From: an uncultured Candidatus Saccharibacteria bacterium
GTDB lineage: Bacteria; Patescibacteriota; Minisyncoccia; Phycocordibacterales; UBA2163
Assembly: GCA_964626705.1 (NCBI GenBank)
Contig: CAZVGL010000004.1
Location: forward strand, 1-62,505
DNA length: 62,505 nucleotides
Reading direction: 5' to 3'
Positions within the stretch are counted from its first letter, which is position 1; every line of letters starts with the position of its first letter. Under the pieces are notes generated by a model. It was given only the letters and a program-made list of their open reading frames with translations. It ran no database searches and had not been told where the DNA came from. The position numbers were made by a program, and so were the translations under genes. Positions 24 to 62,505 of this stretch are shown one piece after another.

Positions 24-165
24 AGAGCACCAAAATTAACTTCGTCCAAATCGTGAAAATTATTCGCTAAATCATTTGGCAAAAACGGATGGGAAAACGG
101 CGATTTCGTAGCGTAAGCAAAGGATAATTCAGACGGCGGGCACGCGCCGAAGTGGGCTGATTTGT
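24..165 (+). repeat. 142-bp inverted repeat, left copy (partner 1583..1724)
   Basis: Compared base by base: exact reverse complement of 1583..1724; begins with the tRNA 3' end AGAGCACCA. Confidence 0.95.
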
Positions 166-189: not shown

Positions 190-1779
190 ATGAGTATCAA
201 ACCAAAATATTTTCTTTATGCTCGCAAGAGTACGGAGGATGATAATAAGCAGATTATGAGTATTGAAGCGCAGCTATTTGAATTGCGAGAGTTTGCTCGC
301 AAAGAAAATCTTGAAATTCTTGAGGAATTTCAAGAGTCGAAAAGCGCAAAGACACCCGGTCGCTTAGTGTTTGGTGAAATGATGGCAAAAGTTGAGGAAA
401 TGGGTAATGTTGGTATTTTAGCGTGGCATCCAGACCGTCTTGCGCGTAATAGTGTAGACGGCGGGAGAATAATCTATGCAGTGGATCAGAGAAATATTGT
501 GTCTTTACGCTTTCCGACATTTTGGTTTGAACCGACACCGCAGGGGTTATTTATGTTGCAAGTGGCGTTTGGTCAATCTAAGTATTATTCGGATAATCTC
601 GTGCAGAATATAAAGCGGGGGATGCGCCAAAAAGTTCGTCGGGGAGAGTGGCTTGGTTTTGCTCCTCCAGGGTATATTAATAATCCGCGCACTCGGAATA
701 TCGAACCTCATCCAACTCATTCGCGTATTATCAAGAGAGCTTTTGAGGAATATGCAAAAGGCAAGCACACACTTATTTCCTTGGCGAACTTTTTGGCGGA
801 ACATGGCATGAGCACAAGGGAGAACACGCCACTTGCCAAATGTTCCATCAAAATCATACTGACAAACAAGGCGTATTTAGGGTTTGTAAAATATCATGGA
901 GAATTGTTTGAAGGAACATTTGCGCCAATTATTACCCCGAAATTATTTGAAGCCGTGCAGAAAGTTCTCGCAACAAGAGGAAAACCGCGTAAATCTAAAG
1001 TGGGGCATAATTTTCCTTTCGTTGGACTTTTTTGTTGTGTAGAGTGTGGGAGTATGATTACTGCTCAATGGGCAACTAATCGTTTTGGCACAAAATATAG
1101 ATATTATCGTTGCACAAAAAAGAAAGGAAAATGCTCCCAAGGATATTTACGCGAGGATAGGCTTGTCGCTCAAATACAGGAACGGCTTCAAAAAATTTCT
1201 CTTTGCGATGAGAGTATTGATAAGATGCTCAAGCAAGTTGATAAATGGGAAAAAGAAAACAATCTCTCATCGCAAACTTGCGTTCAAAATCTTGCTGATA
1301 AAATCAAAGTGAGTGAAGATCGCTTAGAAAAGTTAGTCAGTTCATATTTAGATGGTGATATACCGAAAGAGATTTATATACAAAAGAAAGAGGGGAATAT
1401 GCGCTCCACACTCGCTTTGAAACAGAAACAGAAAGATTTGGAACGCAAGGGTAACAATTGGGTCGAACCCCTGCGGAATTGGATTTTAGATATGAAACTA
1501 GCCAATTTTTTATCCTCATCCACAGATTTTCACGAAATCAGCTCCTTCGTCAAAAAAGTTGGAACGAACCCTACGGTTCGTGACAAATCAGCCCACTTCG
1601 GCGCGTGCCCGCCGTCTGAATTATCCTTTGCTTACGCTACGAAATCGCCGTTTTCCCATCCGTTTTTGCCAAATGATTTAGCGAATAATTTTCACGATTT
1701 GGACGAAGTTAATTTTGGTGCTCTCAGTAGGAATCGAACCTACATCGCATCTTCCGCAAAGATGTATTCTATCCGTTGA
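190..1779 (+). CDS. Large serine recombinase (resolvase + recombinase + Zn-ribbon + coiled coil)
   Basis: YARKS catalytic motif, DRLARN, CxxC (CVEC), YYRC; C-terminal tail is encoded by the inverted repeat and antisense tRNA. Confidence 0.92.
   Translation: MSIKPKYFLYARKSTEDDNKQIMSIEAQLFELREFARKENLEILEEFQESKSAKTPGRLVFGEMMAKVEEMGNVGILAWHPDRLARNSVDGGRIIYAVDQRNIVSLRFPTFWFEPTPQGLFMLQVAFGQSKYYSDNLVQNIKRGMRQKVRRGEWLGFAPPGYINNPRTRNIEPHPTHSRIIKRAFEEYAKGKHTLISLANFLAEHGMSTRENTPLAKCSIKIILTNKAYLGFVKYHGELFEGTFAPIITPKLFEAVQKVLATRGKPRKSKVGHNFPFVGLFCCVECGSMITAQWATNRFGTKYRYYRCTKKKGKCSQGYLREDRLVAQIQERLQKISLCDESIDKMLKQVDKWEKENNLSSQTCVQNLADKIKVSEDRLEKLVSSYLDGDIPKEIYIQKKEGNMRSTLALKQKQKDLERKGNNWVEPLRNWILDMKLANFLSSSTDFHEISSFVKKVGTNPTVRDKSAHFGACPPSELSFAYATKSPFSHPFLPNDLANNFHDLDEVNFGALSRNRTYIASSAKMYSIR
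1583..1724 (-). repeat. 142-bp inverted repeat, right copy
   Basis: Reverse complement of 24..165; overlaps the last 9 nt of tRNA-Arg. Confidence 0.95.
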
Positions 1780-1790
1780 ACTATGAGAGC
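1716..1790 (-). tRNA. tRNA-Arg(GCG), CCA encoded
   Basis: Cloverleaf GCTCTCA...TGAGAGC-ACCA; anticodon arm CATCT-TTGCGGA-AGATG; T-loop TTCGATT. Confidence 0.93.
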
Positions 1791-2899: not shown

Positions 2900-3355
2900 A
2901 TGAATAATATTTCAAAATTAAGATCAATCGTACTTGCTGTCATCGTTATCGACCTGATCTTAGTATTCCCAGTGATGCTTTCTTACGAGAAAGTGGGTGT
3001 ATTCTTTAAGGTAAGTTCAAACGGAATACCAGAAGTATTTGTAACTCTGCTTGTAGAGATCATCCTTCTTGCCGTCACAGCTTTGGTGGCGTATTTGGTT
3101 GCACGTATATTTAGAGGAACTCCATTTGCTTCTGCTCTTTATTTTATAGCATGGGGAGTACTTCTTTACGGAGTTGGAGACTCGCATATCCTTATCTGGA
3201 TGTATACAGGAGTGGAGTCATTCCCTGCGTTTCTAGGGCCTGCCGGTTCGTCAATAGCTCACGCTCTTGGTGTAGGGTTAGGGTTTATCTTAGTGATCTT
3301 GGGTCTATACAAACTTGCAAAAGCTCGTAGTAAAATAGGAGGTGGGTCAATTTAA
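2900..3355 (+). CDS. Hypothetical ~4-TM membrane protein with two intramembrane His
   Basis: Hydrophobic segments; GDSH and IAHA; ATG at 2900 preferred over 2870. Confidence 0.75.
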   Translation: MNNISKLRSIVLAVIVIDLILVFPVMLSYEKVGVFFKVSSNGIPEVFVTLLVEIILLAVTALVAYLVARIFRGTPFASALYFIAWGVLLYGVGDSHILIWMYTGVESFPAFLGPAGSSIAHALGVGLGFILVILGLYKLAKARSKIGGGSI

Positions 3356-3453
3356 TCCATTTTCAATCTTGTACTATATTCAAAACACACAACGATATGT
3401 TGTGTGTTTTGTTTAATAGAAAGTTTTTTTATGTTAAGTTTAATATAAGTTTT

Positions 3454-4695
3454 ATGAAAACTGTAAAAGAAAATATTTATTTGATTATAGCAGGAGTGTT
3501 CGCATTTGGGATTATAAATGCAGCATTGTTTTATTCATACACGGATAAGTTTTCGAGTATAGCATACGTAACATTTCTTATAGCACCCCTTCTAATTGCT
3601 GTGGTTGTCGTATTTACTAAGTTTTCATTTTTATTTACATCAAGGATCTCTGAACAAGAAGACGAGAAGAAACTGTTGCGTGAACGACAGAAAGAAATAG
3701 TAGAAAACATGATAGAAGGGCTTGTGGTGCACGACAAAGTAGGTAAAATACTTTCGGTTAATAGTATGGCAGAAAAGTTCTTAGGTATCCCTATATCGGA
3801 GCTTATTTATAAGAAGAATTCAGAGATAACAAAAAGATCGTCACTTCTCGATGCTTTGTTTAAGAAGTTTAATAAAGGAGATAGTCAGGAACATTCATTT
3901 AAAGATAAGCGTGGTAAAGAATATGTGTTTAAGATAATAAGTGTAGAGCTTAATAAAAAGCGTGGAGAGGTTCTAAAAATAATAAGAGATATTTCGAGAG
4001 AAAAACATTTGGATAAGATGAAGTCTGAGTATATTACTATTATGTCTCATAAGTTTTTGACACCACTTAACGGTATTAAGTGGACAGCACCTAGCTTGTT
4101 AGATAAGGCTATAAAAGAAGATGACAAAGAAAGGTTTGTAAAAAACATAATAGAAAGCACAGATAATCTAATAAATCTGACCTCACTGCTACTTAGGGTT
4201 ACAGAGATGGAGGAAGGGAACTTCGTGTATAAATTAGGACCAGTTGATATAAAGTCAATTGTTGAGAATGCTGTTAAAGATAGAGGTGACGATGTAAAGA
4301 AGAGGAAGATATCGATGATGTTTCATAAACCAGGAGTTTTGATGCCAAATGTTATTGCAGATAGGGATAGGGTAAAAGTTGTCGTCGATAATCTTATAGA
4401 CAATGCGATAAAGTATACCTTAGATGGTGGTAATATAGAGATCTCTTTAAAAGAAGAGGGTGGTAATGTTCGGTTTAGTGTTAAAGACGATGGTATCGGT
4501 ATATCAAAGAAGGCTCAGTCAGATATATTTTCAAAATTCATCAGGGACGATAGAGCTATAGCAATGCATACAGAAGGTTCTGGACTGGGGCTTTTCATAT
4601 CAAAAAATATAATAGAAGAACTTAAAGGTAAGATTGGCTTTACTAGTTCTGAGGAAGGAGGTTCAACGTTTTTCTTCACACTACCAAGAAAATAA
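3454..4695 (+). CDS. Sensor histidine kinase (2 TM, PAS, HisKA, HATPase)
   Basis: H-box SHKFLTP, N-box NLIDNAIKYT, G boxes DDGIGI and GSGLGL. Confidence 0.93.
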   Translation: MKTVKENIYLIIAGVFAFGIINAALFYSYTDKFSSIAYVTFLIAPLLIAVVVVFTKFSFLFTSRISEQEDEKKLLRERQKEIVENMIEGLVVHDKVGKILSVNSMAEKFLGIPISELIYKKNSEITKRSSLLDALFKKFNKGDSQEHSFKDKRGKEYVFKIISVELNKKRGEVLKIIRDISREKHLDKMKSEYITIMSHKFLTPLNGIKWTAPSLLDKAIKEDDKERFVKNIIESTDNLINLTSLLLRVTEMEEGNFVYKLGPVDIKSIVENAVKDRGDDVKKRKISMMFHKPGVLMPNVIADRDRVKVVVDNLIDNAIKYTLDGGNIEISLKEEGGNVRFSVKDDGIGISKKAQSDIFSKFIRDDRAIAMHTEGSGLGLFISKNIIEELKGKIGFTSSEEGGSTFFFTLPRK

Positions 4696-7220: not shown

Positions 7221-8321
7221 ATGAATCCTGTAGAAAATAAAAGTTTTTTTAAAAGATTTTTTCCTGTCCCTAAGATTTTATCTACACCTACTGTTGGTGT
7301 GGATATCTCTGATAACTCAATACGTTTTTTGAAATTTAATGCTACGTCTGGTAACGCTACACTAGAGAAATTTGGGGTGTATTCTATACCGGAGGGTGTT
7401 ATATCAAAAGGGGAGATAAAGAATACAAAAGCATTGTCAGATGTATTAAGGAAATTTAAAGAAGATCATAAAATAAACTTCGTTAGGGCATCTCTCCCAG
7501 AAGAAAAGGTTTATCTGTTTGAGACACAAATACCTGACGATGTGCCAGACAAAGATATTAGAAATATTGTTGAGTTTAAGCTTGAAGATCATGTTCCTAT
7601 ATCTCCTAAAAATGCAGTGTTTGACTATAGTGTGATACCTAATCATGATAGTCATAAGGGGCATACCGACATTATTGTCGCTGTATATCCTAAGCAGATC
7701 GTCGAGCAATACACCAGTGCTTTTGAGGATGCTGGGTTCACTGTTTTGTCTTTTGAAACTGAAGCTCAGGCTATTGCCCGAGCTATTATAAAAGAAAAAG
7801 ACGATGGAACATATATGGTAGTAGACTTTGGAAAAACAAAAACCGGTATTTCTATAGTAAGAAGCGGTATATTGAGTTTTACATCAACTATTGAGATTGA
7901 GCAAAAAAGTATGACAGAAGCGATGATGAAACACCTTTCTGTGTCAGAAGGAGAGGTTAGTCGTGTAAAAGATGAACAAGGACTTATAAAGACAAGAGGT
8001 AATAAAGAGCTGTTCTCAGTTCTTATGAAAGTAGCAGAGTCTTTAGAATATAATATTGATAAGCATTACAAATACTGGAAATCCAAAGTAAATGAAAAGG
8101 GGGATCGTGTAAAACCGATTGAGAAAATTATTCTGTGTGGCGGTAATTCAAATTTGGCTGGATTGCCTGAATATCTTTCATCAAGTCTTAAGATACCGGT
8201 TGAGCGAGCTGATGTGTGGATAAATGCACCTGAGTTTGGTGACAGTGTTCCTGAGATTAGTAAGACTGAGTCACTTTCTTATGCAGCATCTGTCGGACTT
8301 GCACTGCGCGACACAAATTAA
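7221..8321 (+). CDS. pilM: Type IV pilus assembly protein PilM
   Basis: Actin-like fold motifs VGVDISD, VVDFG..KT, ILCGGNSNLAGL; A.VGLALR C-terminus. Confidence 0.88.
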   Translation: MNPVENKSFFKRFFPVPKILSTPTVGVDISDNSIRFLKFNATSGNATLEKFGVYSIPEGVISKGEIKNTKALSDVLRKFKEDHKINFVRASLPEEKVYLFETQIPDDVPDKDIRNIVEFKLEDHVPISPKNAVFDYSVIPNHDSHKGHTDIIVAVYPKQIVEQYTSAFEDAGFTVLSFETEAQAIARAIIKEKDDGTYMVVDFGKTKTGISIVRSGILSFTSTIEIEQKSMTEAMMKHLSVSEGEVSRVKDEQGLIKTRGNKELFSVLMKVAESLEYNIDKHYKYWKSKVNEKGDRVKPIEKIILCGGNSNLAGLPEYLSSSLKIPVERADVWINAPEFGDSVPEISKTESLSYAASVGLALRDTN

Positions 8322-9458: not shown

Positions 9459-9785
9459 ATGAATATAAATATTTTTAAAAAAGGTTTAGGTAAGATGAAT
9501 ATAGGGAGTAGTGAAAATCTATCTGATAAAAGTAAGATATGGAGCAGGTTGCTTATGGTGTTTGTGCTTGTAAATGTGGTTGTTGTCGCACTTAGTCTGT
9601 ATTTATTCATACAAATAAGTAGTGGAGATATTTTTAGTATAAAACAAGAGACTGTTGTGTCCGTAGAGACTGTCGATAGAGCCACTCTTAGAGATATTAT
9701 TGTTTTCTTCGAGCAAAAGGAAGAAGAGTTCGATAGATCTAAAACAGAGGGACCTAGTGGTGACCTTGTTGACCCAGCGCTTTAG
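9459..9785 (+). CDS. Hypothetical single-TM protein of the pil cluster
   Basis: ORF 2 nt after the pilO-like gene; one TM. Confidence 0.6.
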   Translation: MNINIFKKGLGKMNIGSSENLSDKSKIWSRLLMVFVLVNVVVVALSLYLFIQISSGDIFSIKQETVVSVETVDRATLRDIIVFFEQKEEEFDRSKTEGPSGDLVDPAL

Positions 9786-10776: not shown

Positions 10777-10828
10777 CAGTGGCTAATTATTGCTAATTTG
10801 AGCCTACTGTGTTAAAGTGTCTAGCATT

Positions 10829-11446
10829 ATGGCTACAACAGAAGCAACATCTGGAATCACGGTTTCTCCGGTAAATATGGAGAGCAGACAAGAACTCGGC
10901 ATTCGTGCTGGTGATACTGTGCGTGTGTGGCAGAAGATCCAAGAAAAAGGCAAGACAAGACTACAGGCGTTTGAAGGGCTTGTGCTTGCGCATAAGCATG
11001 GTAGTGAGGCAGGAGCTACATTTACAGTAAGAAAGGTTGCAAGTGGCGTAGGTGTAGAAAAAATATTCCCATTGTATTCTCCAGTTATAGATAAAATAGA
11101 GATCGTGAAGCGTGCAAAAGTTCGTCGAGCTAAGCTTTATCATGTTCGTGATAAAGCCGCTAAAGAAATAAGACGACAAATGAGAAATACTATGTTTGTA
11201 GATATACAGACGGTAAGTGACACAGAGGAAGCAAATAAAAAAGTAGCAGATGAAGAAGCTGCTAAAAAAGCTGAGGAAGAAAAAGTACAAGCAGAAGCAA
11301 CTGCAAAGGCAGAGGCAGAGAAAGCAGAAGAGGTGGTAGAAGAAGCTTCAAAAGATACTGCTACAGATGCACCAGCAGAAGAAAAGAAAGAGGAGGTGGT
11401 AGAAGAACCAAAAGCAGAGGAAAAGGTAGAAGAAGAAAAGAAATAA
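10829..11446 (+). CDS. rplS: 50S ribosomal protein L19 with long acidic C-terminal tail
   Basis: GDTVRV, RLQAFEG, GVGVEKIFP, VRRAKLY. Confidence 0.96.
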   Translation: MATTEATSGITVSPVNMESRQELGIRAGDTVRVWQKIQEKGKTRLQAFEGLVLAHKHGSEAGATFTVRKVASGVGVEKIFPLYSPVIDKIEIVKRAKVRRAKLYHVRDKAAKEIRRQMRNTMFVDIQTVSDTEEANKKVADEEAAKKAEEEKVQAEATAKAEAEKAEEVVEEASKDTATDAPAEEKKEEVVEEPKAEEKVEEEKK

Positions 11447-14359: not shown

Positions 14360-14413
14360 AAAACAAAAACACCGCCCAGTCGCTCGCGAGCGACTGGGCG
14401 GTGTTTTTGTTTT
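14360..14413. terminator. Perfect 54-nt palindrome between convergent genes (likely bidirectional terminator)
   Basis: 27+27 nt with no spacer; A/T tails on both sides. Confidence 0.75.
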
Positions 14414-14415
14414 AT

Positions 14416-15192
14416 CTATACTTCAAACGCTAAAAGTGCAAACATTATTGCGATACCGACTACTATAGCTATGAATTGAAGGATGGAGTGTTTTTTGGAT
14501 GAGGTCTTGTGAAGTTCTGGTACTAGGTCAGAGCCTGCTATGTAGATAAACCCACCAGCTGCAAAAGCAATCAAGAATGGAATATAAGAATCAATATTTT
14601 TACCGAAGATAAAAACTATAGCAGTACCAAGTATGGCAGAAAGTGATGAAAAGAAGTTGAACAAAATAGCTTTTGTTTTTGAATAGCCGGAATGTATAAG
14701 TACTGCAAAATGTCCTATCTCTTGTGGTATTTCGTGGAGGATTATCGCAATGGTTGTAGCGATACCGACTTCAATACTTATAAAATAACTTACACCTATG
14801 ATTATTCCATCTACCATGTTGTGTAAAGCATCTGATGTGAGTATGAGAGCACCCATAGGGTGTATCTTCTTTTCTTTTGTCTCGCACTCTTCTGTGTCGC
14901 AACTATGTTCGTGTGAATGATGCCACCGTATAAACTTTTCAAGTACAAAAAAGAGCATTATACCAATAAGTATTGCGAGGGAAACTATAGAAGGGTTGCC
15001 TATCTCATTAAATGCTTCAGGTATAAGGTGTATAATAGCGTCACCAAAAAGTGCACCCACTGACAAGCTTACAAGTAGAAAAGTTATTCTCTTTAAGAAT
15101 GCCTGCTTCAAGCCAAGTGAAAATAAACCTACGAGAGATATAAGGCTTACTAGTATTACACTTCCAAATGCATATATAGTTATTGTATCCAT
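14416..15192 (-). CDS. ZIP-family divalent metal (Zn) transporter
   Basis: HHSHEH loop, DALHNMVDG, ILHEIPQEIG. Confidence 0.93.
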   Translation of the reverse strand: MDTITIYAFGSVILVSLISLVGLFSLGLKQAFLKRITFLLVSLSVGALFGDAIIHLIPEAFNEIGNPSIVSLAILIGIMLFFVLEKFIRWHHSHEHSCDTEECETKEKKIHPMGALILTSDALHNMVDGIIIGVSYFISIEVGIATTIAIILHEIPQEIGHFAVLIHSGYSKTKAILFNFFSSLSAILGTAIVFIFGKNIDSYIPFLIAFAAGGFIYIAGSDLVPELHKTSSKKHSILQFIAIVVGIAIMFALLAFEV

Positions 15193-16119: not shown

Positions 16120-16160
16120 ATTAAATAACACCCGAGGGGTGTTTTTTAATAAAATTCATA

Positions 16161-16212
16161 GCTCCTCAAGGTCTCACCTCTCTCTACGAGGCGAGGAAAG
16201 ACCTTTTCCCGC
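16161..16212 (+). repeat. Bipartite REP-like repeat, family B
   Basis: GCTCCTCAAGGTCTCACCT...GAGGAAAGACCTTTTCCCGC; relatives at 27708, 58293, 59051, 59931. Confidence 0.8.
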
Positions 16213-16234
16213 AATGAATTTTTAATACAAAATC

Positions 16235-24524: not shown

Positions 24525-27500
24525 ATGGAAAATAAAAACGAACAAAAAAACGAAATAGCTAAAAATGAGATAGCTCAGAAGGAGGAGGAAGTCTTGAAGT
24601 TTTGGGGTGAGAATCAGATTTTTAAGAAGTCTGATGAAAAAGAAGCGCCAAATGGCGAGTTTATTTTTTACGAAGGGCCACCTACTGCAAACGGTAAGCC
24701 AGGAATGCACCATATGGAAGCGCGAGCTTTTAAAGATGCAATACCTCGGTATAAAACTATGCAAGGTTTTCATGTGCGCAGAAAAGCTGGTTGGGACACA
24801 CATGGACTTCCTGTGGAGATACAGGTGGAGAAAGAACTTGAGCTACATTCTAAAAAAGATATTGAAGAATACGGTATAGCGAATTTTAATAAAAAATGTA
24901 AAGAAAGTGTTTGGAAATATGTAGACCTGTGGGAGAAGTTTACGGACAGAATAGGCTTCTGGCTTGATAAAGAAAATCCGTACATAACATACGAACCAGA
25001 GTATATGGAATCTGTGTGGAATGTTGTAAAGAAAGTTGATGATCAAAAACTTCTATATAAAGACTATAGAATAGTAAACTGGTGTCCTCGTTGTGGTACA
25101 GGGCTTTCGAGTCATGAGCTTGCACAAGGGTATCAGGAAGTCCACGACATGTCTGTTTACGTAAAATTTAAGGTTAAAAATAAAGAAAATACATATCTAC
25201 TTGCGTGGACTACTACACCCTGGACGCTTCCTGGGAATGTCGCGCTTGCAGTAGGAGAGAAAATTAAATACAAAATGCTTAAAGCAGATGGCGAGAATTT
25301 AATTCTAGCGGAAGATAGAGTAGAAGATGTAATGAAAGATAAGGAGTACGAGGTTGTGGAAGATCTGAGCGGTAAAGATTTGACAAAATATGAATACGAG
25401 CCTTTATATTCATATTTAGAAGATACATTACCAGAAAGCGAAACTAAAAAACTTAAAAATGCATATAAAGTATATGAAGCTGACTTTGTAAATACAGAAG
25501 ATGGTACAGGGATCGTGCATACTGCTGTGATGTATGGTGCAGATGACTTTATACTTGGTACAGAAAATGATTTGCCTAAACACCACATAGTTAATGAAGA
25601 CGGTAGGTTTATAAGTGGTACAGACTTCTTAGAAGGTAAAAAAGTAAGAGGTTCTAATGATGAGATAATAGAAGATTTAGAAAAGAAGGAAATCCTTTTT
25701 GATAAAGAGAGGATAAAGCATACATACCCGCATTGTTGGAGGTGTAAAACTGCGCTTATATACTATGCACGGGACTCTTGGTATATACGAATGTCAGATC
25801 TACGCGACAAACTTGTAAAAGAAAACAATACTATAAACTGGGAGCCAGAACATATAAAAGAAGGACGGTTTGGTGAGTGGGTAAGAGAGGTGAAAGACTG
25901 GGCGATCTCAAGAGAGAGGTATTGGGCTACACCACTTCCAGTCTGGCAAAATGATAAAGGAGAGAATACGGTAATCGGTAGTATAGAAGAGCTTAAAAAG
26001 TATACAAAGAAGAGTGGAAATAAGTATTTTGTAATGCGTCATGCAGAGGCAGAGAACAATACGCTAAGTGTAATAAGCTCTAAGGCAGATAACCCGCATC
26101 ATGTAACAGAGAAAGGAAAAGAACAGATGGTAGATGCTATCAAACAATTAAAGAAAGAAAAAATTGATTTAATAATCGCTTCTCCGTTTGTGAGAACACG
26201 TGAGACTGCAGAAATAGCTGCGGATGGTATTGGTATTGATAAAAGTCAGATAATATATGAACAAAGAATACAAGAGCTGGATGCGGGGGATCTTGAGGGG
26301 GTGAGTGTTGAGGAATATCATGCATACTTTGATTCTACTAAAGAATGTTTTGAAAAAGGGTGTCCAGGTGGTGAAAACTATGTACAGATAAAGAGTAGAA
26401 TGGGTAATTTTATTTATGATATAGAAAATAAATATAAAGGTAAAAATATTTTGATTGTTACACATGATGCACCAGGGTGGCTTTTAATTAATGCAGCGTA
26501 TGGATATAGTGGTGAAAAAGCTGTCGCACAGAGGAAGGATGACAAAGATCATTTTATTTTTAATGCAGAAATTAAAAAACTTAATTTTGTTCCACTACCA
26601 CATAATGAAAATTATGAACTTGATCTGCATCGGCCGTACATTGATGAAGTAGAGCTTGTAGATGAGAAGGGAAATAAACTTACAAGAGTGAAAGAGGTTA
26701 TGGACGTGTGGTTCGACTCTGGAGCGATGCCGTATGCACAAGACCATTATCCGTTTGAGAATAAAGAGCTTATAGAAGGAGGCGGCTACCCAGCTGATTT
26801 TATATCAGAAGCTATTGACCAGACTCGTGGATGGTTCTATACACTGCATGCTATCGGTGCCTTGATGTGCCGTGGGAAAGCATATAAGAATGTGATCTCA
26901 CTTGGACATATCTTAGATAAAAAAGGTAAGAAGATGTCTAAATCTGTAGGTAATGTAGTAGATCCGTGGGAAATGACAGATAAATACGGAGTAGATGCAT
27001 TGCGCTTCTGGATGTATACGGTGAACCAGCCAGGGGACTCCAAAAACTTTGAAGAGAGAAGTGTTGATGAGGTGGTAAAGAAGGTGTTTAATCTTTTGAA
27101 CAATATTGTTAAGTTCTATGAGCTTTATAGTATAAAAGAGCAAGTCTTTGATGATAAACATACGAAGAGTGGAAATGTGCTTGATGTATGGATACTTGCA
27201 AAACTTAATAAGCTAAAAGAAAATACAACAAAGAGTTTAGATGAATATCATTTGTTTGAACCAGCACGCGAGGTCAGAGAGTTCATAGCAGACTTCTCAC
27301 AATGGTATGTTCGTCGTTCTCGCGATAGGTTTAAAACAACAGGAGGGGATAAAGAGTACGCGCTTGCGACTACTCGGTTTGTGCTTCTTGAGCTTTCAAA
27401 ACTTATGGCGCCGTTTACACCATTTATAGCAGAGCAGGTGTATCAGAAAGTGAGGAGTATTGATATGGCAGAGAGTGTGCACTTGGAAAGCTGGCCAGAA

Positions 27501-28049
27501 TTTGAAGTGAAAGACACAACAATACTTGACGATATGGAAAAAATAAGAAAAATAGCTTCGCTTGGGCTTGAGGCGCGAGCTAATGTAAATATAAAAGTAC
27601 GGCAACCCTTGGCTTCGCTTAAGTTAAAAACTGAAGGAGGAAAGCTGGACGATGGTTTATTGCAGTTAGTTAGGGATGAGGTGAATGTAAAAGAGATTTT
27701 GTTTGTCGCGGAAGAAGGTCTTTCCTCGGGTAGCGAAGCGGACGGAGGTGAGACCTTGGGGAGCGATATTGTTGAGCTAGATACAAACCTTACGCAAGAA
27801 CTTAAAGACGAGGGTGTCGTGCGTGAACTCACTCGTGCTATTCAAGGTGCAAGAAAAGTCGCAGAGCTTACCCCACAGGATTTTATAAACTTAGATGTCG
27901 AGACAGATAACAAAGGACAGTCCTTTGTAGAAAAGTTTGAAGAGCAAATAAAAACAGGAGCTCTTATAAAAGAAATCAGTTTCACCAAAACAGAAGGCGA
28001 CGAAATAAATGTAGATCCATATATATTCAAGTTTAAGGTAATAAAATAG
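24525..28049 (+). CDS. ileS: Isoleucine--tRNA ligase (type 2-like) with inserted histidine-phosphatase domain and in-frame repeat insertion
   Basis: GWDTHGLP, WTTTPWTLP, DWAISRERYW, KMSKS; RHA phosphatase insert at about 26019..26595. Confidence 0.96.
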   Translation: MENKNEQKNEIAKNEIAQKEEEVLKFWGENQIFKKSDEKEAPNGEFIFYEGPPTANGKPGMHHMEARAFKDAIPRYKTMQGFHVRRKAGWDTHGLPVEIQVEKELELHSKKDIEEYGIANFNKKCKESVWKYVDLWEKFTDRIGFWLDKENPYITYEPEYMESVWNVVKKVDDQKLLYKDYRIVNWCPRCGTGLSSHELAQGYQEVHDMSVYVKFKVKNKENTYLLAWTTTPWTLPGNVALAVGEKIKYKMLKADGENLILAEDRVEDVMKDKEYEVVEDLSGKDLTKYEYEPLYSYLEDTLPESETKKLKNAYKVYEADFVNTEDGTGIVHTAVMYGADDFILGTENDLPKHHIVNEDGRFISGTDFLEGKKVRGSNDEIIEDLEKKEILFDKERIKHTYPHCWRCKTALIYYARDSWYIRMSDLRDKLVKENNTINWEPEHIKEGRFGEWVREVKDWAISRERYWATPLPVWQNDKGENTVIGSIEELKKYTKKSGNKYFVMRHAEAENNTLSVISSKADNPHHVTEKGKEQMVDAIKQLKKEKIDLIIASPFVRTRETAEIAADGIGIDKSQIIYEQRIQELDAGDLEGVSVEEYHAYFDSTKECFEKGCPGGENYVQIKSRMGNFIYDIENKYKGKNILIVTHDAPGWLLINAAYGYSGEKAVAQRKDDKDHFIFNAEIKKLNFVPLPHNENYELDLHRPYIDEVELVDEKGNKLTRVKEVMDVWFDSGAMPYAQDHYPFENKELIEGGGYPADFISEAIDQTRGWFYTLHAIGALMCRGKAYKNVISLGHILDKKGKKMSKSVGNVVDPWEMTDKYGVDALRFWMYTVNQPGDSKNFEERSVDEVVKKVFNLLNNIVKFYELYSIKEQVFDDKHTKSGNVLDVWILAKLNKLKENTTKSLDEYHLFEPAREVREFIADFSQWYVRRSRDRFKTTGGDKEYALATTRFVLLELSKLMAPFTPFIAEQVYQKVRSIDMAESVHLESWPEFEVKDTTILDDMEKIRKIASLGLEARANVNIKVRQPLASLKLKTEGGKLDDGLLQLVRDEVNVKEILFVAEEGLSSGSEADGGETLGSDIVELDTNLTQELKDEGVVRELTRAIQGARKVAELTPQDFINLDVETDNKGQSFVEKFEEQIKTGALIKEISFTKTEGDEINVDPYIFKFKVIK
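27708..27764 (-). repeat. Family B repeat inserted in frame in ileS
   Basis: 57 nt; reverse complement is near-identical to 59931..59985; encodes AEEGLSSGSEADGGETLGS. Confidence 0.85.
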
Positions 28050-28050
28050 C

Positions 28051-28653
28051 ATGTCACATACTCTATACAGTACAGAATGTATAGTCCTAGGAAGTATTGA
28101 TTCTGGCGAGGCAAATAGATATATCTCTTTGTTTACAAAAGAGATGGGTTTTGTGCGTGCTGTTGCAAAGAGTGTACGAGAAGAAAGGTCAAAACTTCGA
28201 TACTCTCTACAAGCTTTCTCGTTTACAAATGCAACACTTGTTCGTGGGCGTGAAGTGTGGAGAATAACAGGTGCAGAAGAGAAGTATAGTTTGCATCATG
28301 ATTTGAAACATGACAGTAATAAATTATTTGCAATTACGCAGATATTAAATCTCTTAAACAGGCTTTTGCATGGAGAAGAGAAGAATGATTATCTTTTTAA
28401 TACTTTGTCAGATGGTTTAGAATATCTGCGTGCAAATAATATGGACGAAGAAGCTATAAAAAATTTTGAACATCTTATAGTCCTTCGTATGCTTTACTCG
28501 CTTGGGTATATTGCAAAAGAAAAAGAAAAAGACAACCTTGCCGAATTATTACAGCTAACTGTGGTGGATGAAGGATTGTTAATAAAAACACAATCTGAAC
28601 GAAAACAAGTTTTATTTGCTATAAATAGAGCGTTGAAGGAAGCGCATCTGTAG
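28051..28653 (+). CDS. recO: DNA repair protein RecO
   Basis: N-terminal OB fold: GEANRYISLFTKEMG.V.A.AK.VR..RSKL. Confidence 0.85.
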   Translation: MSHTLYSTECIVLGSIDSGEANRYISLFTKEMGFVRAVAKSVREERSKLRYSLQAFSFTNATLVRGREVWRITGAEEKYSLHHDLKHDSNKLFAITQILNLLNRLLHGEEKNDYLFNTLSDGLEYLRANNMDEEAIKNFEHLIVLRMLYSLGYIAKEKEKDNLAELLQLTVVDEGLLIKTQSERKQVLFAINRALKEAHL

Positions 28654-57518: not shown

Positions 57519-58205
57519 ATGTTAATACAAACATGGAGCGAAGTTTTAACAGGTTCATTTCAAGATTTATGGCTTGGAGTTGTTGATTTCGTACCAAATC
57601 TTATAATAGCGCTTATAATCTTCATCATAGGATGGATAATAGGTGCAGTGCTTGGACGAGTAGTTGATCAAGTTATACGTTCTCTAAAGGTAGACAATGC
57701 CCTAAGAGGAGCAGGACTTGATGATGCTTTCGGACGAGCAGGTTTTGACATTAATTCAGGCCGATTTTTAGGAGGCTTGGTTAAATGGTTCGTTATAATA
57801 GTATTCCTTGTAGCATCTCTTGATGTTCTTGGTCTTACACAGGTTAATACATTCCTACAGGAAGTTGTATTGCTTTACCTACCACAGGTAATCGTAGCAG
57901 TACTTATCCTTCTTGTTGCAGCAGTTATTGCTGAAGTAATGCAACGACTTGTTATCGGTGGAGCAAAAGCTGCTCATATGAAGTCCTTTAACTTCCTTGG
58001 AAGTGTAACAAAATGGGCTATCTGGATTTTCGCAATCCTCGCAGCATTGTTCCAACTTGGTGTAGCAGCAGCATTCGTACAAACACTTTTCACAGGTGTT
58101 ATCGTAGCGCTTGCTCTAGCTTTCGGACTATCATTTGGTCTTGGAGGACAAGATGCAGCATCAAAGTACATCGAGAAGCTAAAGGGAGATATTACAGACA
58201 AGTAA
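57519..58205 (+). CDS. MscS-related TM-helix membrane protein (CmpX-like)
   Basis: Repeated P.LI.A..I..IGW / LPQVIVAVLIL; AFGLSFGLGG. Confidence 0.8.
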   Translation: MLIQTWSEVLTGSFQDLWLGVVDFVPNLIIALIIFIIGWIIGAVLGRVVDQVIRSLKVDNALRGAGLDDAFGRAGFDINSGRFLGGLVKWFVIIVFLVASLDVLGLTQVNTFLQEVVLLYLPQVIVAVLILLVAAVIAEVMQRLVIGGAKAAHMKSFNFLGSVTKWAIWIFAILAALFQLGVAAAFVQTLFTGVIVALALAFGLSFGLGGQDAASKYIEKLKGDITDK

Positions 58206-58236
58206 GTATTTGATCGGACGGAAATAATATACTTTA

Positions 58237-58269
58237 AAACCACCCGCAGGCTCCGCCTGCGGGTGGTTT
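58237..58269 (+). terminator. Intrinsic terminator
   Basis: AAACCACCCGCAGGC-TCC-GCCTGCGGGTGGTTT. Confidence 0.75.
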
Positions 58270-58292
58270 GTTGTTGCGAAAGAGGGTCTAAT

Positions 58293-58349
58293 GCGGGAAA
58301 AGGTCGTTCCTTGAGGAGGAGCTTTGCGACAGGAAAGGTGCGACCTTGG
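58293..58349 (-). repeat. Family B repeat
   Basis: GCGGGAAAAGGTC...AGGTGCGACCTTGG. Confidence 0.7.
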
Positions 58350-58396
58350 TATGTAAAAAAATTGCAGAGCTTTATTGACGGTGATATTATTTAATT

Positions 58397-58999
58397 ATGA
58401 ACACTATCAAAGAATGTTTCAAAATAATTTTGCATGGCAATAAGAGTGATAGTCGTATAGCTGCCCGTAGGGTAAGGAAATTATTGTACGGTTCACGAAG
58501 CACTAAAGATAGTTTCAGAGATATTAAAGATATTATTAACAGTGCGAGAAGCGAATACACCAGAATCTCTGAAGAATGGCGACAAGAAAATTTTATCTCA
58601 GCACTTTCAGTTATTTATTACTTACATGATAGAGAAGAGCAACCCGACTTTCTTTTCTCTTGGTTATTTCAATTGCTCCAGCATACTAACGGTATTATTC
58701 GTTATGCATCTGTAAAAATGCTTTCTCATGAAATCGGACCACTCACTGTTCATATTCGATGTCCAAAAGATAAACTCTTTCTCGGAGATAAGTTAAAGCC
58801 AGAACAGGCTGATCATATTTTGCGAGCTATTTATATAAATTTAAATGAACTACTACCTATTTTTTGGCATCCGAAGTTTAAAAAATATAAATATATTGAT
58901 GCTTTACCAGCAAGTCCGTATAAGTCTGTGCAGATGGTCTTGGCTGAATTAGAAGATTCTTGTGGGAAAGAGTATATAAATCGTCTTATGGGACATTAG
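58397..58999 (+). CDS. Hypothetical all-helical protein
   Basis: 200-aa ORF between two family B repeats; no family recognised. Confidence 0.65.
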   Translation: MNTIKECFKIILHGNKSDSRIAARRVRKLLYGSRSTKDSFRDIKDIINSARSEYTRISEEWRQENFISALSVIYYLHDREEQPDFLFSWLFQLLQHTNGIIRYASVKMLSHEIGPLTVHIRCPKDKLFLGDKLKPEQADHILRAIYINLNELLPIFWHPKFKKYKYIDALPASPYKSVQMVLAELEDSCGKEYINRLMGH

Positions 59000-59050
59000 A
59001 AATAAAGAGTATTTAGCCAAAACCTACCTCAATTTTGATGGAATGGTGTT

Positions 59051-59112
59051 GCGGAAGAAGGTCTGCACCTCGAAGAGCCCCGCAGGGCGGGGAGAGGTCA
59101 GTCCTTGGGGGG
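59051..59112 (-). repeat. Family B repeat
   Basis: GCGGAAGAAGGTC (identical to the end of the ileS copy)...AGGTCAGTCCTTGGGGGGC. Confidence 0.75.
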
Positions 59113-59153
59113 CAACAGTTAAATTACAGCTTAAAATAGTCACATTTTTGCTA

Positions 59154-59181
59154 TTGACAAACTACCTCAAAATGCTATACT
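59154..59181 (+). promoter_or_regulatory. sigma70 promoter with extended -10
   Basis: TTGACA-16 nt-TATACT with TGc before the -10. Confidence 0.6.
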
Positions 59182-59268
59182 GTTGGGAGTAAAAGTAGTA
59201 TATTCACAAATCTATAGTTAAATAAATTTTTGTTTTAGTTAAACTTTTTTTAAAATAAGGAGGAAGTC

Positions 59269-59532
59269 ATGCATAAAATATCGTGTCGTGATGAAAGGTG
59301 TTCTGGATGTTATGATTCTATATTGTCTGGTCCAGACAGTGGAGTAGATGCATCTGATGAGAATATTGCTCGACTAGAAGAATTAGAAGGGCGATACGAT
59401 GATCCTAGGGAGGAAGAATGGTGTAGGGATGATAATGACGATAACGATTATGATGACTGTGCTTCAGCGTGGGGTGCAATAATGTGCGAAGAGCATAAAA
59501 CATGCAAAACCTGCCCATTAGATCTCAAATAA
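59269..59532 (+). CDS. Small acidic Cys-rich protein
   Basis: SD AAGGAGG; C..C..C at the N-terminus, C.....C...CKTC at the C-terminus. Confidence 0.6.
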   Translation: MHKISCRDERCSGCYDSILSGPDSGVDASDENIARLEELEGRYDDPREEEWCRDDNDDNDYDDCASAWGAIMCEEHKTCKTCPLDLK

Positions 59533-59607
59533 AAATAGCATGTTTACAAAGCTGTAATTAAGTAAGCTTTTGTTTGTTTAAACTTTTTTTGAAAAGGGGA
59601 ATTTAAT

Positions 59608-59787
59608 ATGTTTAGTGATAAAGAAATTAATGATTATGTTGTCAACTTTAAGAGGAATGAGAATATTGAATTATCAAAAGAAGATGCAATTAGTTGTTTA
59701 GTGCAAAAAGCATCTGAAGAAAATCAGAAATGGATGGAGAAACAGTTTACTGAAGATCGAAAATATAGACCGTATCATGTTTCGTAA
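59608..59787 (+). CDS. 59-aa hypothetical protein (absent from the ORF track)
   Basis: MFSDKEINDYVVNF...; SD-like AAGGGG; leader resembles that of 59269. Confidence 0.5.
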   Translation: MFSDKEINDYVVNFKRNENIELSKEDAISCLVQKASEENQKWMEKQFTEDRKYRPYHVS

Positions 59788-59930
59788 GAACAGATCGTCT
59801 AATTTAATAGCCAGACTACAACATTATTGTTGAGGTTTGGCTTTTTTGGTGTAAATTTCTTTAGAAATGATTAACTAAGCTGTTGAGGTATTCAGGAAAA
59901 TCTAGTTTTCGGATAGTTGGTAACTTAATA

Positions 59931-59985
59931 CTCCTCAAGGACCCACCTCCGTCCGCTTCGCTCCCCGAGGAAAGACCTTTTCCCG
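59931..59985 (+). repeat. Family B repeat
   Basis: CTCCTCAAGGACCCACCTCCGTCCGCTTCGCTCCCCGAGGAAAGACCTTTTCCCG. Confidence 0.85.
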
Positions 59986-60011
59986 TATTAAGCACTTTCC
60001 CTGCTTAATAT

Positions 60012-60039
60012 TTGACTTATTTTCTATACCGAGTATACT
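60012..60039 (+). promoter_or_regulatory. Putative rRNA promoter for the stand-alone 23S gene
   Basis: TTGACT-16 nt-TATACT about 350 nt upstream of 23S; multi-hairpin leader follows. Confidence 0.6.
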
Positions 60040-60389
60040 AGTCTCTACGTGTTAAGAAAGAAAGTTAACCAAATATCAAGGCGGGGGAGGTAACCAATAT
60101 CTTTTTATTGTGTTATTTTACCGCTAAGTTGAGCGGTTTTTTTAACTTTAATACGAGACCTTTGATAATTAAATAAGTCTGCATATCTGATTAGAGAACC
60201 AGATGTGTAGACCGAGCAAGCGTCCCGTCAAATTTTTCTTTTGGAAAAATTTGACGGGACAAGACAAAACGCTCACTAATTAGTATGTTAGTGAGACGAA
60301 CACAAGAAAATACTATTTTCTGAATGTATTCTAGACAGTACATTCAGAAAGCTCCGCCTTTGGCGGAGCAAGCGGTTTTTAGATTTCCT

Positions 60390-62505
<2,116 letters not shown>

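What the first reader, a model, noticed from the sequence alone, without database searches (positions are those of the whole stretch)
27708..27764. Mobile repeat inserted in frame into an essential gene (ileS), adding a 19-aa loop
Seen: 57 nt (19 codons, in phase, residues 1062-1080, AEEGLSSGSEADGGETLGS). Its reverse complement matches the intergenic copy at 59931..59985, with a central 36-nt stretch differing at one base. It falls between VNVKEILFV and DIVELDT in the C-terminal region. Known: in-frame palindromic insertions in proteins are documented for Rickettsia RPEs and a few other lineages. Inference: CPR REP-like elements also create new protein sequence.
Basis: partly seen in the sequence, partly recalled or inferred. 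Interest (0 to 1): 0.72.

Follow-up and report, generated by a model that had tools for sequence, protein, structure and literature searches.

The report
Coding hairpin repeat inside CPR ileS
A 57-base hairpin-forming repeat scattered through the genomes of a group of ultra-small marine bacteria (Paceibacteria, CPR) sits in frame inside the isoleucyl-tRNA synthetase gene and adds a floppy 19-residue surface loop, as is known for Rickettsia, but here in a new phylum, with a new repeat family and in many housekeeping genes.

Summary
Window 27708-27764 lies in frame in ileS (24525-28049) and is one of five copies in the window of a ~57-nt hairpin repeat. The others are at 16.2, 58.3, 59.0 and 59.9 kb.

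About ten copies per genome are implied by contig depth. Dozens more occur in related Paceibacteria MAGs and metagenome contigs. The hairpin is supported by covariation and matches no Rfam family.

Of 118 related IleRS proteins, almost all have a 7-residue loop here, including the window's closest relative. Only three others carry the repeat or a remnant of it. An AlphaFold model puts the insert in a disordered loop of the C-terminal tRNA-binding domain. Priestia IleRS2 has an ~88-residue stretch at the same point.

The same repeat is in frame in LeuRS, LigA, RNase HII, KsgA, HsdM, a GHMP kinase and other genes. Sense copies use the only stop-free sense frame. The modal length is 57 nt (3n).

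This is an RPE-like coding repeat in a new phylum. How it moves is unknown: the flanks are copy-specific inverted repeats, not target duplications. The same IleRS site is occupied patchily across relatives, which is unexplained. Expression was not tested.

The parts
24525..28049 (+). ileS. It encodes a type-2 isoleucyl-tRNA synthetase of 1174 aa and is intact (KMSKS present). It hosts the insert and also carries a His_Phos_1 domain at about residues 497-690.
   Evidence: ORF and translation. 120 homologues with their Pfam domains. AF2 model (pLDDT 86.8) matches P. megaterium IleRS2 8c8w/8c8v, E about 1e-84.
27708..27764 (+). Conserved 57-nt repeat unit (family B) in frame in ileS: GCGGAAG-AAGGTCTTTCCTC-GGGTAGCGAAGCGGACG-GAGGTGAGACCTT-GGGGAGC. 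It is codons 1062-1080, AEEGLSSGSEADGGETLGS.
   Evidence: CM score 85 bits, E 2e-25. pLDDT below 50 at residues 1068-1079, between strands 1055-1061 and 1083-1085.
27704..27768 (+). The whole hairpin, including the copy-specific outer stem (TGTCGC / GCGATA).
   Evidence: RNA fold -30.5 kcal/mol, z -3.8, 0 of 200 shuffles as stable. Outer-stem covariation across 38 copies.
59924..59992 (-). It lies about 400 nt upstream of the 23S rRNA gene.
   Evidence: -28.1 kcal/mol on the minus strand; 88 bits; 23S rRNA from 60390.
58278..58370 (+). Diverged intergenic copy (49-nt core). Its stem is changed in a compensatory way (GGTCG/CGACC).
   Evidence: (pair I22); (54 bits).
59036..59129 (+). Diverged intergenic copy with outer stem GTTGC/GCAAC.
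   Evidence: 44.5 bits, E 9e-12.
16145..16227 (-). Intergenic copy with a short apex (39-nt core), lying between a DUF541 gene and nusG.
   Evidence: (80 bits).

Best explanation
The 57 nt at 27708-27764 are one copy of a dispersed, non-autonomous, hairpin-forming repeat family found in Paceibacteria (CPR). I call it family B.

Architecture: a copy-specific outer stem of 3-8 bp; a G-C clamp; a conserved non-complementary internal loop (GGGAA/GAGGA); the stem AAGGTCT/AGACCTT with an invariant U.G pair; the stem CCTC/GAGG; and a variable apex that is often a GCGAAGC-type mini-hairpin.

Shown: (1) A copy entered the ileS coding sequence at the tip of a beta-hairpin in the C-terminal tRNA-binding domain, replacing a short 7-residue loop. 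(2) It is in the only sense frame of the repeat that has no stop codon, and the modal unit length is a multiple of three (57 nt). (3) The reading frame of ileS runs through it intact.

Inferred: (1) The insert is transcribed and translated into an acidic Gly/Ser-rich disordered loop of about 19-22 residues, which the enzyme tolerates as a passenger and not as a functional module. (2) The copies seen inside genes are survivors of purifying selection, which leaves only in-frame, stop-free copies in permissive loops. (3) The family spreads through a folded single strand recognised in trans, without target-site duplication, in the manner of HUH/Y1 enzymes acting on REP or IS200/IS605 hairpins, or by template switching. 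No enzyme has been identified, so this last step is the weakest.
For: Repeat identity: five copies in the window; about 10x contig depth over the insert. A scan of species-representative genomes returned 27 loci, nearly all from about eight Paceibacteria MAGs, with 11-12 copies in each of two MAGs. A metagenome scan gave more than 120 loci.

Structure: 88% of cells are paired, against 79% in shuffles (0 of 500 reach the observed value) and 36-50% in slid controls. 13 pairs show changes on both sides.

Strand specificity: G.U to A.C is 15:1 in the inner helices, plus the invariant U.G.

Insertion rather than ancestral loop: the 7-aa loop is present in nearly all of 118 relatives. Codon alignment. 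The insert-free nearest relative L004 is also nearest by ArgRS and RecO. The intergenic site downstream of ileS is filled in L001 and empty in L004. L004 and L008 contain no copies.

Decay: L005 keeps only the two ends of the element; 30 internal nt are lost and the hairpin is gone.

Permissive site: pLDDT is below 50 between two strands. P. megaterium IleRS2 has about 88 residues at the same point. Other lineages carry unrelated insertions there, including a second 57-nt structured repeat in P0066.

Generality: in-frame copies occur in LeuRS (same site in two contigs, plus an antisense copy elsewhere), LigA (two contigs, +21 aa in the Zn-finger loop compared with 8ak4), RNase HII (about +22 aa compared with 7uwe), KsgA, HsdM (six contigs), a GHMP kinase, a GT1 glycosyltransferase and a DGR-type RT.

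Frames and length: only one of three sense frames is open and all three antisense frames are open. 22 of 32 full-length units have a length that is a multiple of three, and 18 of those are 57 nt.
Against: No transposase or other mobilising enzyme was found, and no target-site duplication exists. The flanks are inverted, copy-specific repeats, which no standard transposition chemistry explains.

The WIN and L001 inserts are 61/63 identical, outer stem included, while the two genes are 75% identical in DNA. Neutral passenger DNA inherited from a common ancestor should have diverged more. That points to nucleotide-level constraint, recent transfer, or repeated insertion at the same site.

The core hairpin is conserved across many CPR lineages with different flanks, which hints at a function beyond selfish spread.

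No transcript or peptide evidence is available. All comparisons rest on MAGs and metagenome contigs. Whether ileS is the only copy in the genome, and so essential, was not checked beyond the window.
Confidence: 0.78

Rival explanations
1. The hairpin is a functional nucleic-acid module, for example a binding site for a conserved protein, or a 3'-end or processing and stability element of RNA. On this view it is kept by selection wherever it sits, including inside ileS, and the peptide is a by-product. This is not exclusive of the best explanation.
For: The core hairpin is conserved in many CPR contigs with different flanks. The U.G pair is invariant, the asymmetric internal loop is conserved, and G.U to A.C is 15:1. 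The WIN and L001 inserts are 97% identical against 75% for the gene. L003 keeps a very stable hairpin (-35 kcal/mol, z -4.1) although its peptide differs. 10 of 31 intergenic copies start within 0-4 nt of the stop codon of a same-strand upstream gene, and copies share the orientation of neighbouring genes 24 times against 13.
Against: Close relatives do without it at the same loci. The L005 copy has decayed. In-gene copies occur in both orientations. There is no Rfam match. No partner protein or phenotype is known.
Confidence: 0.25
2. The insert did not enter ileS in the window's own lineage. One ancient insertion allele has instead been passed between related Paceibacteria by short-patch homologous recombination. 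This would explain why non-sister lineages share it and sister lineages lack it.
For: WIN and L001 have identical junctions and outer stems, at 61/63 identity. Around the insert (alignment nt 3000-3600), informative sites favour WIN+L001 (27) over WIN+L004 (12), whereas the reverse holds for the gene as a whole (214 against 77). The gene tree and local gene order disagree: L001 is syntenic with L004, but its IleRS groups with L008.
Against: The immediately flanking codons follow the species pattern, with L001 resembling L008. The 3' signal is noisy: the third topology gets 17 sites, and 4 of the 27 sites fall in columns misaligned with the insert. L003 carries a different subfamily with a different outer stem at the same site, and P0066 carries an unrelated repeat there. 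Both argue for repeated independent colonisation.
Confidence: 0.35
3. The loop is an ordinary lineage-specific protein feature, and its resemblance to the intergenic sequence is coincidence, or the intergenic copies are gene fragments.
For: This loop varies in length among IleRS proteins.
Against: 0 chance matches are expected. There are five copies in the window and more than 150 elsewhere, most of them intergenic and unrelated to ileS. Conservation follows base pairing and not the peptide.
Confidence: 0.01
4. The insert is an assembly artefact: a repeat wrongly joined into ileS.
For: Short-read graph contigs break at the repeat.
Against: A single contig in run X15 spans 27604-28100 with no differences, and overlapping contigs in X1 and X17 cover both junctions. 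Independent ENA, JGI and Logan assemblies of relatives have it at the same codon with the frame intact.
Confidence: 0.02
5. The insert is removed after transcription or translation, like an intron or an intein, and never appears in the enzyme.
For: It is a stable hairpin with a conserved internal loop.
Against: It matches no known intron or RNA family. It is far too short for an intein and has no intein motifs. In-gene copies avoid the frames with stop codons and favour 3n lengths, which matters only if they are translated. No DNA contig shows a joint that skips it.
Confidence: 0.03

Closest known systems
Rickettsia palindromic elements (RPE; Ogata et al. 2000 Science 290:347; Ogata et al. 2002 Genome Res 12:808; Claverie & Ogata 2003 TiBS 28:75), as summarised in PMC10969869 and PMC6649704
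   Same: A dispersed palindromic repeat in a small-genome, host-dependent bacterium. Copies lie in intergenic DNA and also in frame inside unrelated housekeeping genes. They encode a conserved peptide, sit where the protein fold tolerates them, and decay with time. No transposase is known.
   Different: This family is much shorter (57-77 nt, against about 100-150 bp) and occurs in a different phylum (Patescibacteria/CPR). I saw no resemblance to what I recall of RPEs, but no sequence comparison was run. It has a conserved asymmetric internal loop and an invariant U.G pair. Its outer stems are copy-specific. The same loop of one gene is occupied in several non-sister lineages.
REP / BIME / REPIN elements mobilised by RAYT (HUH Y1) transposases, and IS200/IS605-derived palindrome-associated elements (from my own knowledge)
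   Same: Short imperfect hairpins act as the unit. The structure is strand-specific with conserved mismatches. There is no target-site duplication. There are tens of copies per genome, often just downstream of genes.
   Different: REPs are extragenic by definition. They are 20-40 nt long, carry a conserved 5' GTAG-type tetranucleotide, and co-occur with a RAYT gene. Here many copies are inside genes, there is no GTAG, and no RAYT or TnpA was looked for beyond a few ORFs.
Bacterial MITEs (Correia, ERIC, BOX/RUP, Nezha etc.; review PMC10969869; Delihas, PMC2229807)
   Same: Small non-autonomous repeats that fold into hairpins and occasionally form in-frame fusions with host ORFs.
   Different: MITEs are defined by terminal inverted repeats plus direct target-site duplications and by a parent IS. 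Here the flanks are inverted, not direct, and they differ between copies that have identical cores.
Coding palindromic repeats of Methanocaldococcus jannaschii (Suyama et al. 2005) and the very small dispersed repeats of cyanobacteria (Elhai et al. 2008), both recalled from memory and not checked here
   Same: Short palindromic repeats found inside protein-coding genes with the reading frame preserved, and with no known transposase.
   Different: They belong to other lineages and have other sequences. I have not compared them here.

Membership tests
RPE-like coding palindromic repeats (as a kind of element) | Multi-copy dispersed repeat with hairpin potential, found both between and inside genes | tested here: met
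   Five copies in the window, about 10 per genome, more than 150 in related contigs. Covariation supports the hairpin.
RPE-like coding palindromic repeats (as a kind of element) | In-gene copies are in frame and stop-free, and the host ORF continues on both sides | tested here: met
   IleRS, LeuRS, LigA, RnhB, KsgA, HsdM, GHMP kinase, GT1 and RT. Only one sense frame is open, and it is the frame the sense copies checked use, e.g. IleRS, LeuRS, LigA, RnhB.
RPE-like coding palindromic repeats (as a kind of element) | Orthologues without the element lack the extra residues | tested here: met
   IleRS: 7 against 22 residues. RnhB compared with 7uwe. LigA compared with 8ak4. KsgA is only about +8 in a variable loop.
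RPE-like coding palindromic repeats (as a kind of element) | The insert lies in a surface loop compatible with the fold | tested here: met
   AF2 model: pLDDT below 50 at 1068-1079, between two strands. Priestia IleRS2 has an ~88-residue stretch at the same point.
Rickettsia RPE families proper (RPE-1 to RPE-10) | Length about 100-150 bp, sequence similarity to an RPE consensus, host genus Rickettsia | tested here: not met
   The unit is 57 nt (range 47-77). The hosts are Paceibacteria MAGs. Sequence similarity to RPE consensus sequences was not tested, because none were available in the tools.
MITE | Direct target-site duplication flanking the element | tested here: not met
   The flanks are inverted repeats, e.g. 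CACGC...GCGTG, GTAACGC...GCGTTAC, TTGTTGC...GCAACAA. Helix 1 is 70% paired, with changes on both sides in all 8 pairs.
MITE | Terminal inverted repeats shared with a parent IS that encodes a transposase | not tested
   The stem arms could pass as TIRs. No IS with these ends was searched for, and only a few neighbouring ORFs were scanned.
REP/REPIN-RAYT | Extragenic, 20-40 nt palindrome with a conserved 5' tetranucleotide (GTAG-like) | tested here: not met
   Many copies are intragenic. The unit is 57 nt. The conserved 5' motif is GCGGGAA, with no GTAG.
REP/REPIN-RAYT | A RAYT (Y1 HUH transposase) gene in the same genome | not testable with these tools
   Only a 62.5-kb window and fragments of at most about 8 kb from the MAGs are held. 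Whole genomes could not be scanned for PF01797.
Known structured RNA families (Rfam 15) | Match to a curated covariance model | tested here: not met
   No hit at gathering score in the window or in four repeat-rich loci. No relevant hit at E<=1 in 58200-60100.

The most novel reading that the evidence does not exclude
The conserved core hairpin (AAGGUCKUUCCUYG-apex-CRAGGUGMGACCUU, with its invariant U.G and the GGGAA/GAGGA loop) may be the recognition module of a so-far undescribed, CPR-wide mobile or recombination system that leaves no target-site duplication. It would act on one folded strand, create or require short locus-specific inverted flanks, and repeatedly hit the same permissive loops of essential genes. 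At one IleRS codon position I found two subfamilies of the repeat plus an unrelated 57-nt family. If so, it would be a systematic source of new protein segments in organisms otherwise known for genome reduction and few transposons.
Probability: 0.25. Interest if true: 0.8.

Novelty: new member of a known kind. Interest (0 to 1): 0.62.

Why it matters
In-frame palindromic repeats in essential genes have been a curiosity almost confined to Rickettsia. Finding the same phenomenon in Paceibacteria shows that it recurs in reduced, host-dependent genomes. Here it involves a new 57-nt family, at least about ten different host genes and two orientations. It is a real route to new loops in conserved enzymes.

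There are practical consequences. These inserts inflate and distort alignments of marker proteins (aaRS, LigA) used for CPR phylogeny. They break short-read assemblies inside essential genes. They give a simple sequence tag for tracking lineages.

The unusual anatomy makes the family a tractable handle on how DNA moves in CPR bacteria, for which almost nothing is known. That anatomy includes copy-specific inverted flanks, strand-specific structure, near-identical inserts in diverged genes, and repeated occupancy of one site.

Tried and rejected
(1) Protein-level census of hosts. I searched the 5.8-billion-protein set with the insert peptide. A tandem-duplicated 46-aa profile gave 115 candidates and one hit at E=7.6. 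Short peptides cannot reach significance in a database of that size.

(2) Rfam, at gathering and at permissive thresholds, gave nothing relevant.

(3) RNA evidence: no RNA runs are indexed for this region.

(4) Presence/absence polymorphism in the source population. Logan contigs show no joint that skips the insert, but contigs drop rare variants, so this is uninformative for minor alleles.

(5) Kink-turn reading of the GGGAA/GAGGA loop. Checked by eye against the K-turn consensus in both orientations, and the tandem G.A positions do not fit. Dropped.

(6) Target-site duplication. Looked for and rejected, because the flanks are inverted.

(7) A weak CM hit in L008 (16173-16253, 20 bits) lies in coding sequence and lacks the core. 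It is not a copy.

(8) Recombination test around the insert. The informative-site counts are suggestive but noisy, and I could not decide between independent insertion and allele transfer.

(9) The ORF at 58397-58999, flanked by two direct copies, was considered as a candidate transposase. It has no Pfam match and does not look like one.

(10) The second palindrome family (ACAAAGGACWGTCCTTTGT) inside ileS at 27910-27928 is not an insertion, since there is no length change compared with relatives.
Full report
**1. The observation**

The ORF 24525..28049 (+) encodes a 1174-aa isoleucyl-tRNA synthetase.

The reverse complement matches 59931-59985 over 55 nt at 89% (pair I2). My own search used a 34-nt core pattern with one degenerate position. 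It found only these two sites, with no match in 100 dinucleotide shuffles.

**2. It is a repeat family, not a pair**

A regular expression and then a covariance model (R1, built from 38 copies) find five copies in the window:
- 27693-27780 (+), inside ileS
- 59914-60001 (-)
- 16145-16227 (-)
- 58278-58370 (+)
- 59036-59129 (+)

The window occurs in seawater metagenomes. In their Logan contigs the word depth rises from about 9.5 to 97 exactly over 27705-27758. Contigs from other loci end in the repeat. The genome therefore holds about ten copies that share 31-mers.

A scan of one genome per species with a two-arm pattern returned 27 loci. Nearly all come from about eight Paceibacteria/Parcubacteria MAGs, and two MAGs have 11-12 copies each. 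No Rfam family matches.

**3. Anatomy**

The consensus reads: [outer stem, 3-8 bp, different in each copy] GC GGGAA AAGGTCT TT CCTC [apex of 7-37 nt, usually a GCGAAGC/ACGAAGT-type mini-hairpin] GAGG TG AGACCTT GAGGA GC [outer stem, reverse complement].

The ileS copy folds at -30.5 kcal/mol (z = -3.8).

Across 38 copies:
- 88% of pair cells are standard pairs, against 79% in column shuffles (0 of 500 reach the observed value) and 36-50% when partners are slid.
- 13 of 23 pairs show changes on both sides. Examples are GGTCT/AGACC to GGTCG/CGACC, G-C to A-U in the mini-hairpin, and every position of the outer stem.
- The invariance of the P2 columns is partly imposed by my search pattern.

One U.G pair is invariant. 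In the inner helices G.U outnumbers A.C 15 to 1. The structure therefore belongs to one strand, which is the ileS sense strand.

The flanks are inverted repeats, not direct ones, so there is no target-site duplication. Copies with identical 44-nt cores have different outer stems (WIN ileS against L029; the L001 downstream copy against L033).

**4. Insertion, not an ancestral loop**

In an alignment of 118 related IleRS C-termini, almost all have seven residues here (D-E-x-[ILM]-x-x-x). That includes P0001, the window's closest relative (83% identity).

Only these carry the repeat:
- P0003: AEEGLSSGSEADGGETLRS
- P0002: a 63-nt subfamily, AGKGLSSSRSKAEQGGETLRS
- P0007: a remnant that keeps both ends but has lost 30 internal nt

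L004 (P0001) is also the window's nearest relative by ArgRS and RecO. Its 12-kb contig, and the 23-kb contig of the other insert-free relative L008, hold no copy of the family. L001 and L004 share gene order. The intergenic site just after ileS is filled in L001 and empty in L004.

The net gain in the window is 15 residues (22 against 7). The 57-nt unit replaced most of the old loop.

**5. Where it sits in the protein**

An AlphaFold2 model built with 85 sequences has mean pLDDT 86.8. It matches the type-2 IleRS of Priestia megaterium (8c8w/8c8v, E about 1e-84) and the yeast IleRS-tRNA complex.

The insert is the tip of a beta-hairpin, between strands 1055-1061 and 1083-1085. pLDDT is below 50 at residues 1068-1079.

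In P. megaterium IleRS2, about 88 residues lie between the same two conserved motifs (NVK..F at 847 and LDT at 938). The site is a natural point for large length variation.

Several other Paceibacteria lineages have unrelated insertions there. P0066 carries a different 57-nt, two-hairpin repeat at this site and a second copy in another loop near the C-terminus. The two copies differ by compensatory changes. P0046 has that repeat at the second site.

**6. Generality**

The same family lies in frame in other genes of related contigs:
- LeuRS: sense copies at one site in L015 and L035, and an antisense copy elsewhere in L055
- NAD-dependent DNA ligase: L030 and L070, +21 residues in the Zn-finger loop compared with 8ak4
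- RNase HII: L032, about +22 residues compared with 7uwe
- KsgA/RsmA: L014, antisense
- HsdM methylase: six contigs
- a GHMP kinase, a GT1 glycosyltransferase, an LTD/PKD surface protein and a DGR-type reverse transcriptase

Only one of the three sense frames lacks a stop codon, and it is the frame used by the IleRS, LeuRS, LigA and RNase HII copies. All three antisense frames are open. 22 of 32 full-length units have a length that is a multiple of three, and 18 of those are 57 nt. Copies are not independent, so this is descriptive.

Ten of 31 intergenic copies begin within 0-4 nt of the stop codon of a same-strand upstream gene.

**7. How it most likely works**

Shown:
- It is a copy of a dispersed, structured repeat.
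- It is an insertion relative to relatives.
- It preserves the reading frame.
- It lies in a predicted disordered loop at a naturally variable point.
- The family does this in many genes.

Inferred:
- The loop is translated and tolerated as a passenger.
- The in-gene copies we see are those that purifying selection lets through.
- The family spreads via a folded single strand, without target duplication.

The last step is the weakest, because no enzyme was identified.

**8. What does not fit a simple selfish-DNA story**

The WIN and L001 inserts are 61/63 identical, outer stem included, while the two genes are 75% identical in DNA. Each has a closer relative that lacks the insert.

L003 has another subfamily, with a different outer stem, at the same codon position.

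Informative sites near the insert weakly favour WIN+L001: 27 sites against 12, with 17 for the third topology. This does not settle whether the explanation is short-patch allele transfer, repeated insertion at one site, or nucleotide-level constraint.

The core hairpin also occurs with quite different flanks in other CPR-like contigs (a 'Type II' form, with four copies in L041). That hints at a function for the hairpin itself. I give the functional-module reading 0.25 and allele transfer as the route into this lineage 0.35. Neither contradicts the main conclusion.

**9. Comparison with what is known**

The closest known phenomenon is the Rickettsia palindromic element, summarised in PMC10969869 and PMC6649704. 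The behaviour is the same: dispersed, in frame, tolerated in loops, and decaying.

It is not a member of those families. It is about half the length and occurs in a different phylum.

It fails the MITE definition because it has no direct target duplication. It fails the REP definition because copies are intragenic, there is no GTAG motif, and the unit is 57 nt.

Three full-text searches combining CPR, Patescibacteria or Parcubacteria with palindromic-element or coding-palindrome terms found no report. I rate it a new member of a known kind, with a 0.25 chance that its mechanism is something new.

**10. Verdict**

Interest is 0.62. The result is not categorically new, but it extends a rare phenomenon to the CPR, across many essential genes, with unexplained features that can be tested.

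Noticed in passing
window 24525-28049, residues ~497-690 (about 26010-26600): The IleRS carries a complete histidine-phosphatase (His_Phos_1, PF00300) domain inserted in the catalytic body. It folds well in the AF2 model. All but two of the 120 best Paceibacteria IleRS hits share it; the exceptions are P0036 (973 aa) and the partial P0008.
   Followed up: partly
window 24-165 and 1583-1724; ORF 190-1779; tRNA-Arg 1716-1790 (-): A 142-nt perfect inverted repeat brackets a 529-aa ORF that looks like a large serine recombinase (judged from its sequence by eye; no domain search was run). The 3' end of the ORF overlaps tRNA-Arg(gcg). This could be an integrated element at a tRNA gene, an invertible segment, or an assembly artefact at the end of the window.
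   Followed up: partly
window 13893, 27910, 48358, 48427, 49152, 53725, 56541 (19 nt each): A second palindrome family, ACAAAGGACWGTCCTTTGT. Several copies are followed by T-runs and look like terminators. One exact copy lies inside ileS (27910-27928, NKGQSFV) with no length change. Relatives have only a quasi-palindrome there (AAYAAAGGNCAGNCCTTT), so the gene sequence seems to have been perfected towards the family consensus.
   Followed up: partly
L006:7047-7102 and L006:7332-7387 (ileS of P0066); also P0046: A different 57-nt repeat with two inner hairpins (CTAAAT-CCAGT..ACTGG-ATCGCCCGAT-GTTTCC..GGAAAC-ATTTAG) occurs twice in frame in one ileS gene, with compensatory changes between the two copies. 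It encodes EAKSSFTGSPDVSKETFRE and EAKSAQSGSSDASEEAFRE. It has the same length as family B and a similar peptide pattern.
   Followed up: partly
L041:6620-6657, 7941-7978, 10789-10826, 10885-10922 and many other metagenome loci: A 'Type II' relative of the core hairpin has a 38-nt core (AAGGTCGTTCCTCGCTGTAATCGGCGAGGTGCGACCTT). Its flanks are non-complementary (..GCATTTTA / GGCAAACTTGCATTTT). It is abundant in intergenic regions of other CPR-like contigs that carry LTD and DUF5667 genes.
   Followed up: partly
window 58278-60001, upstream of the 23S rRNA gene at 60390: Three family-B copies cluster within 1.7 kb just upstream of the 23S rRNA gene. Two direct copies bracket a 200-aa ORF (58397-58999) that has no Pfam match.
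   Followed up: partly
L151 (metagenome contig), ORF around 9511-9559: A reverse transcriptase with the DGR hallmark motif (LGNLTSQ, YADD) carries an antisense in-frame copy of the repeat.
   Followed up: no
window 14360-14413: A perfect 27+27-nt palindrome (AAAACAAAAACACCGCCCAGTCGCTCG / reverse complement) with no spacer lies at the 3' end of the ORF 14416-15192 (-). It is probably a bidirectional terminator.
   Followed up: no
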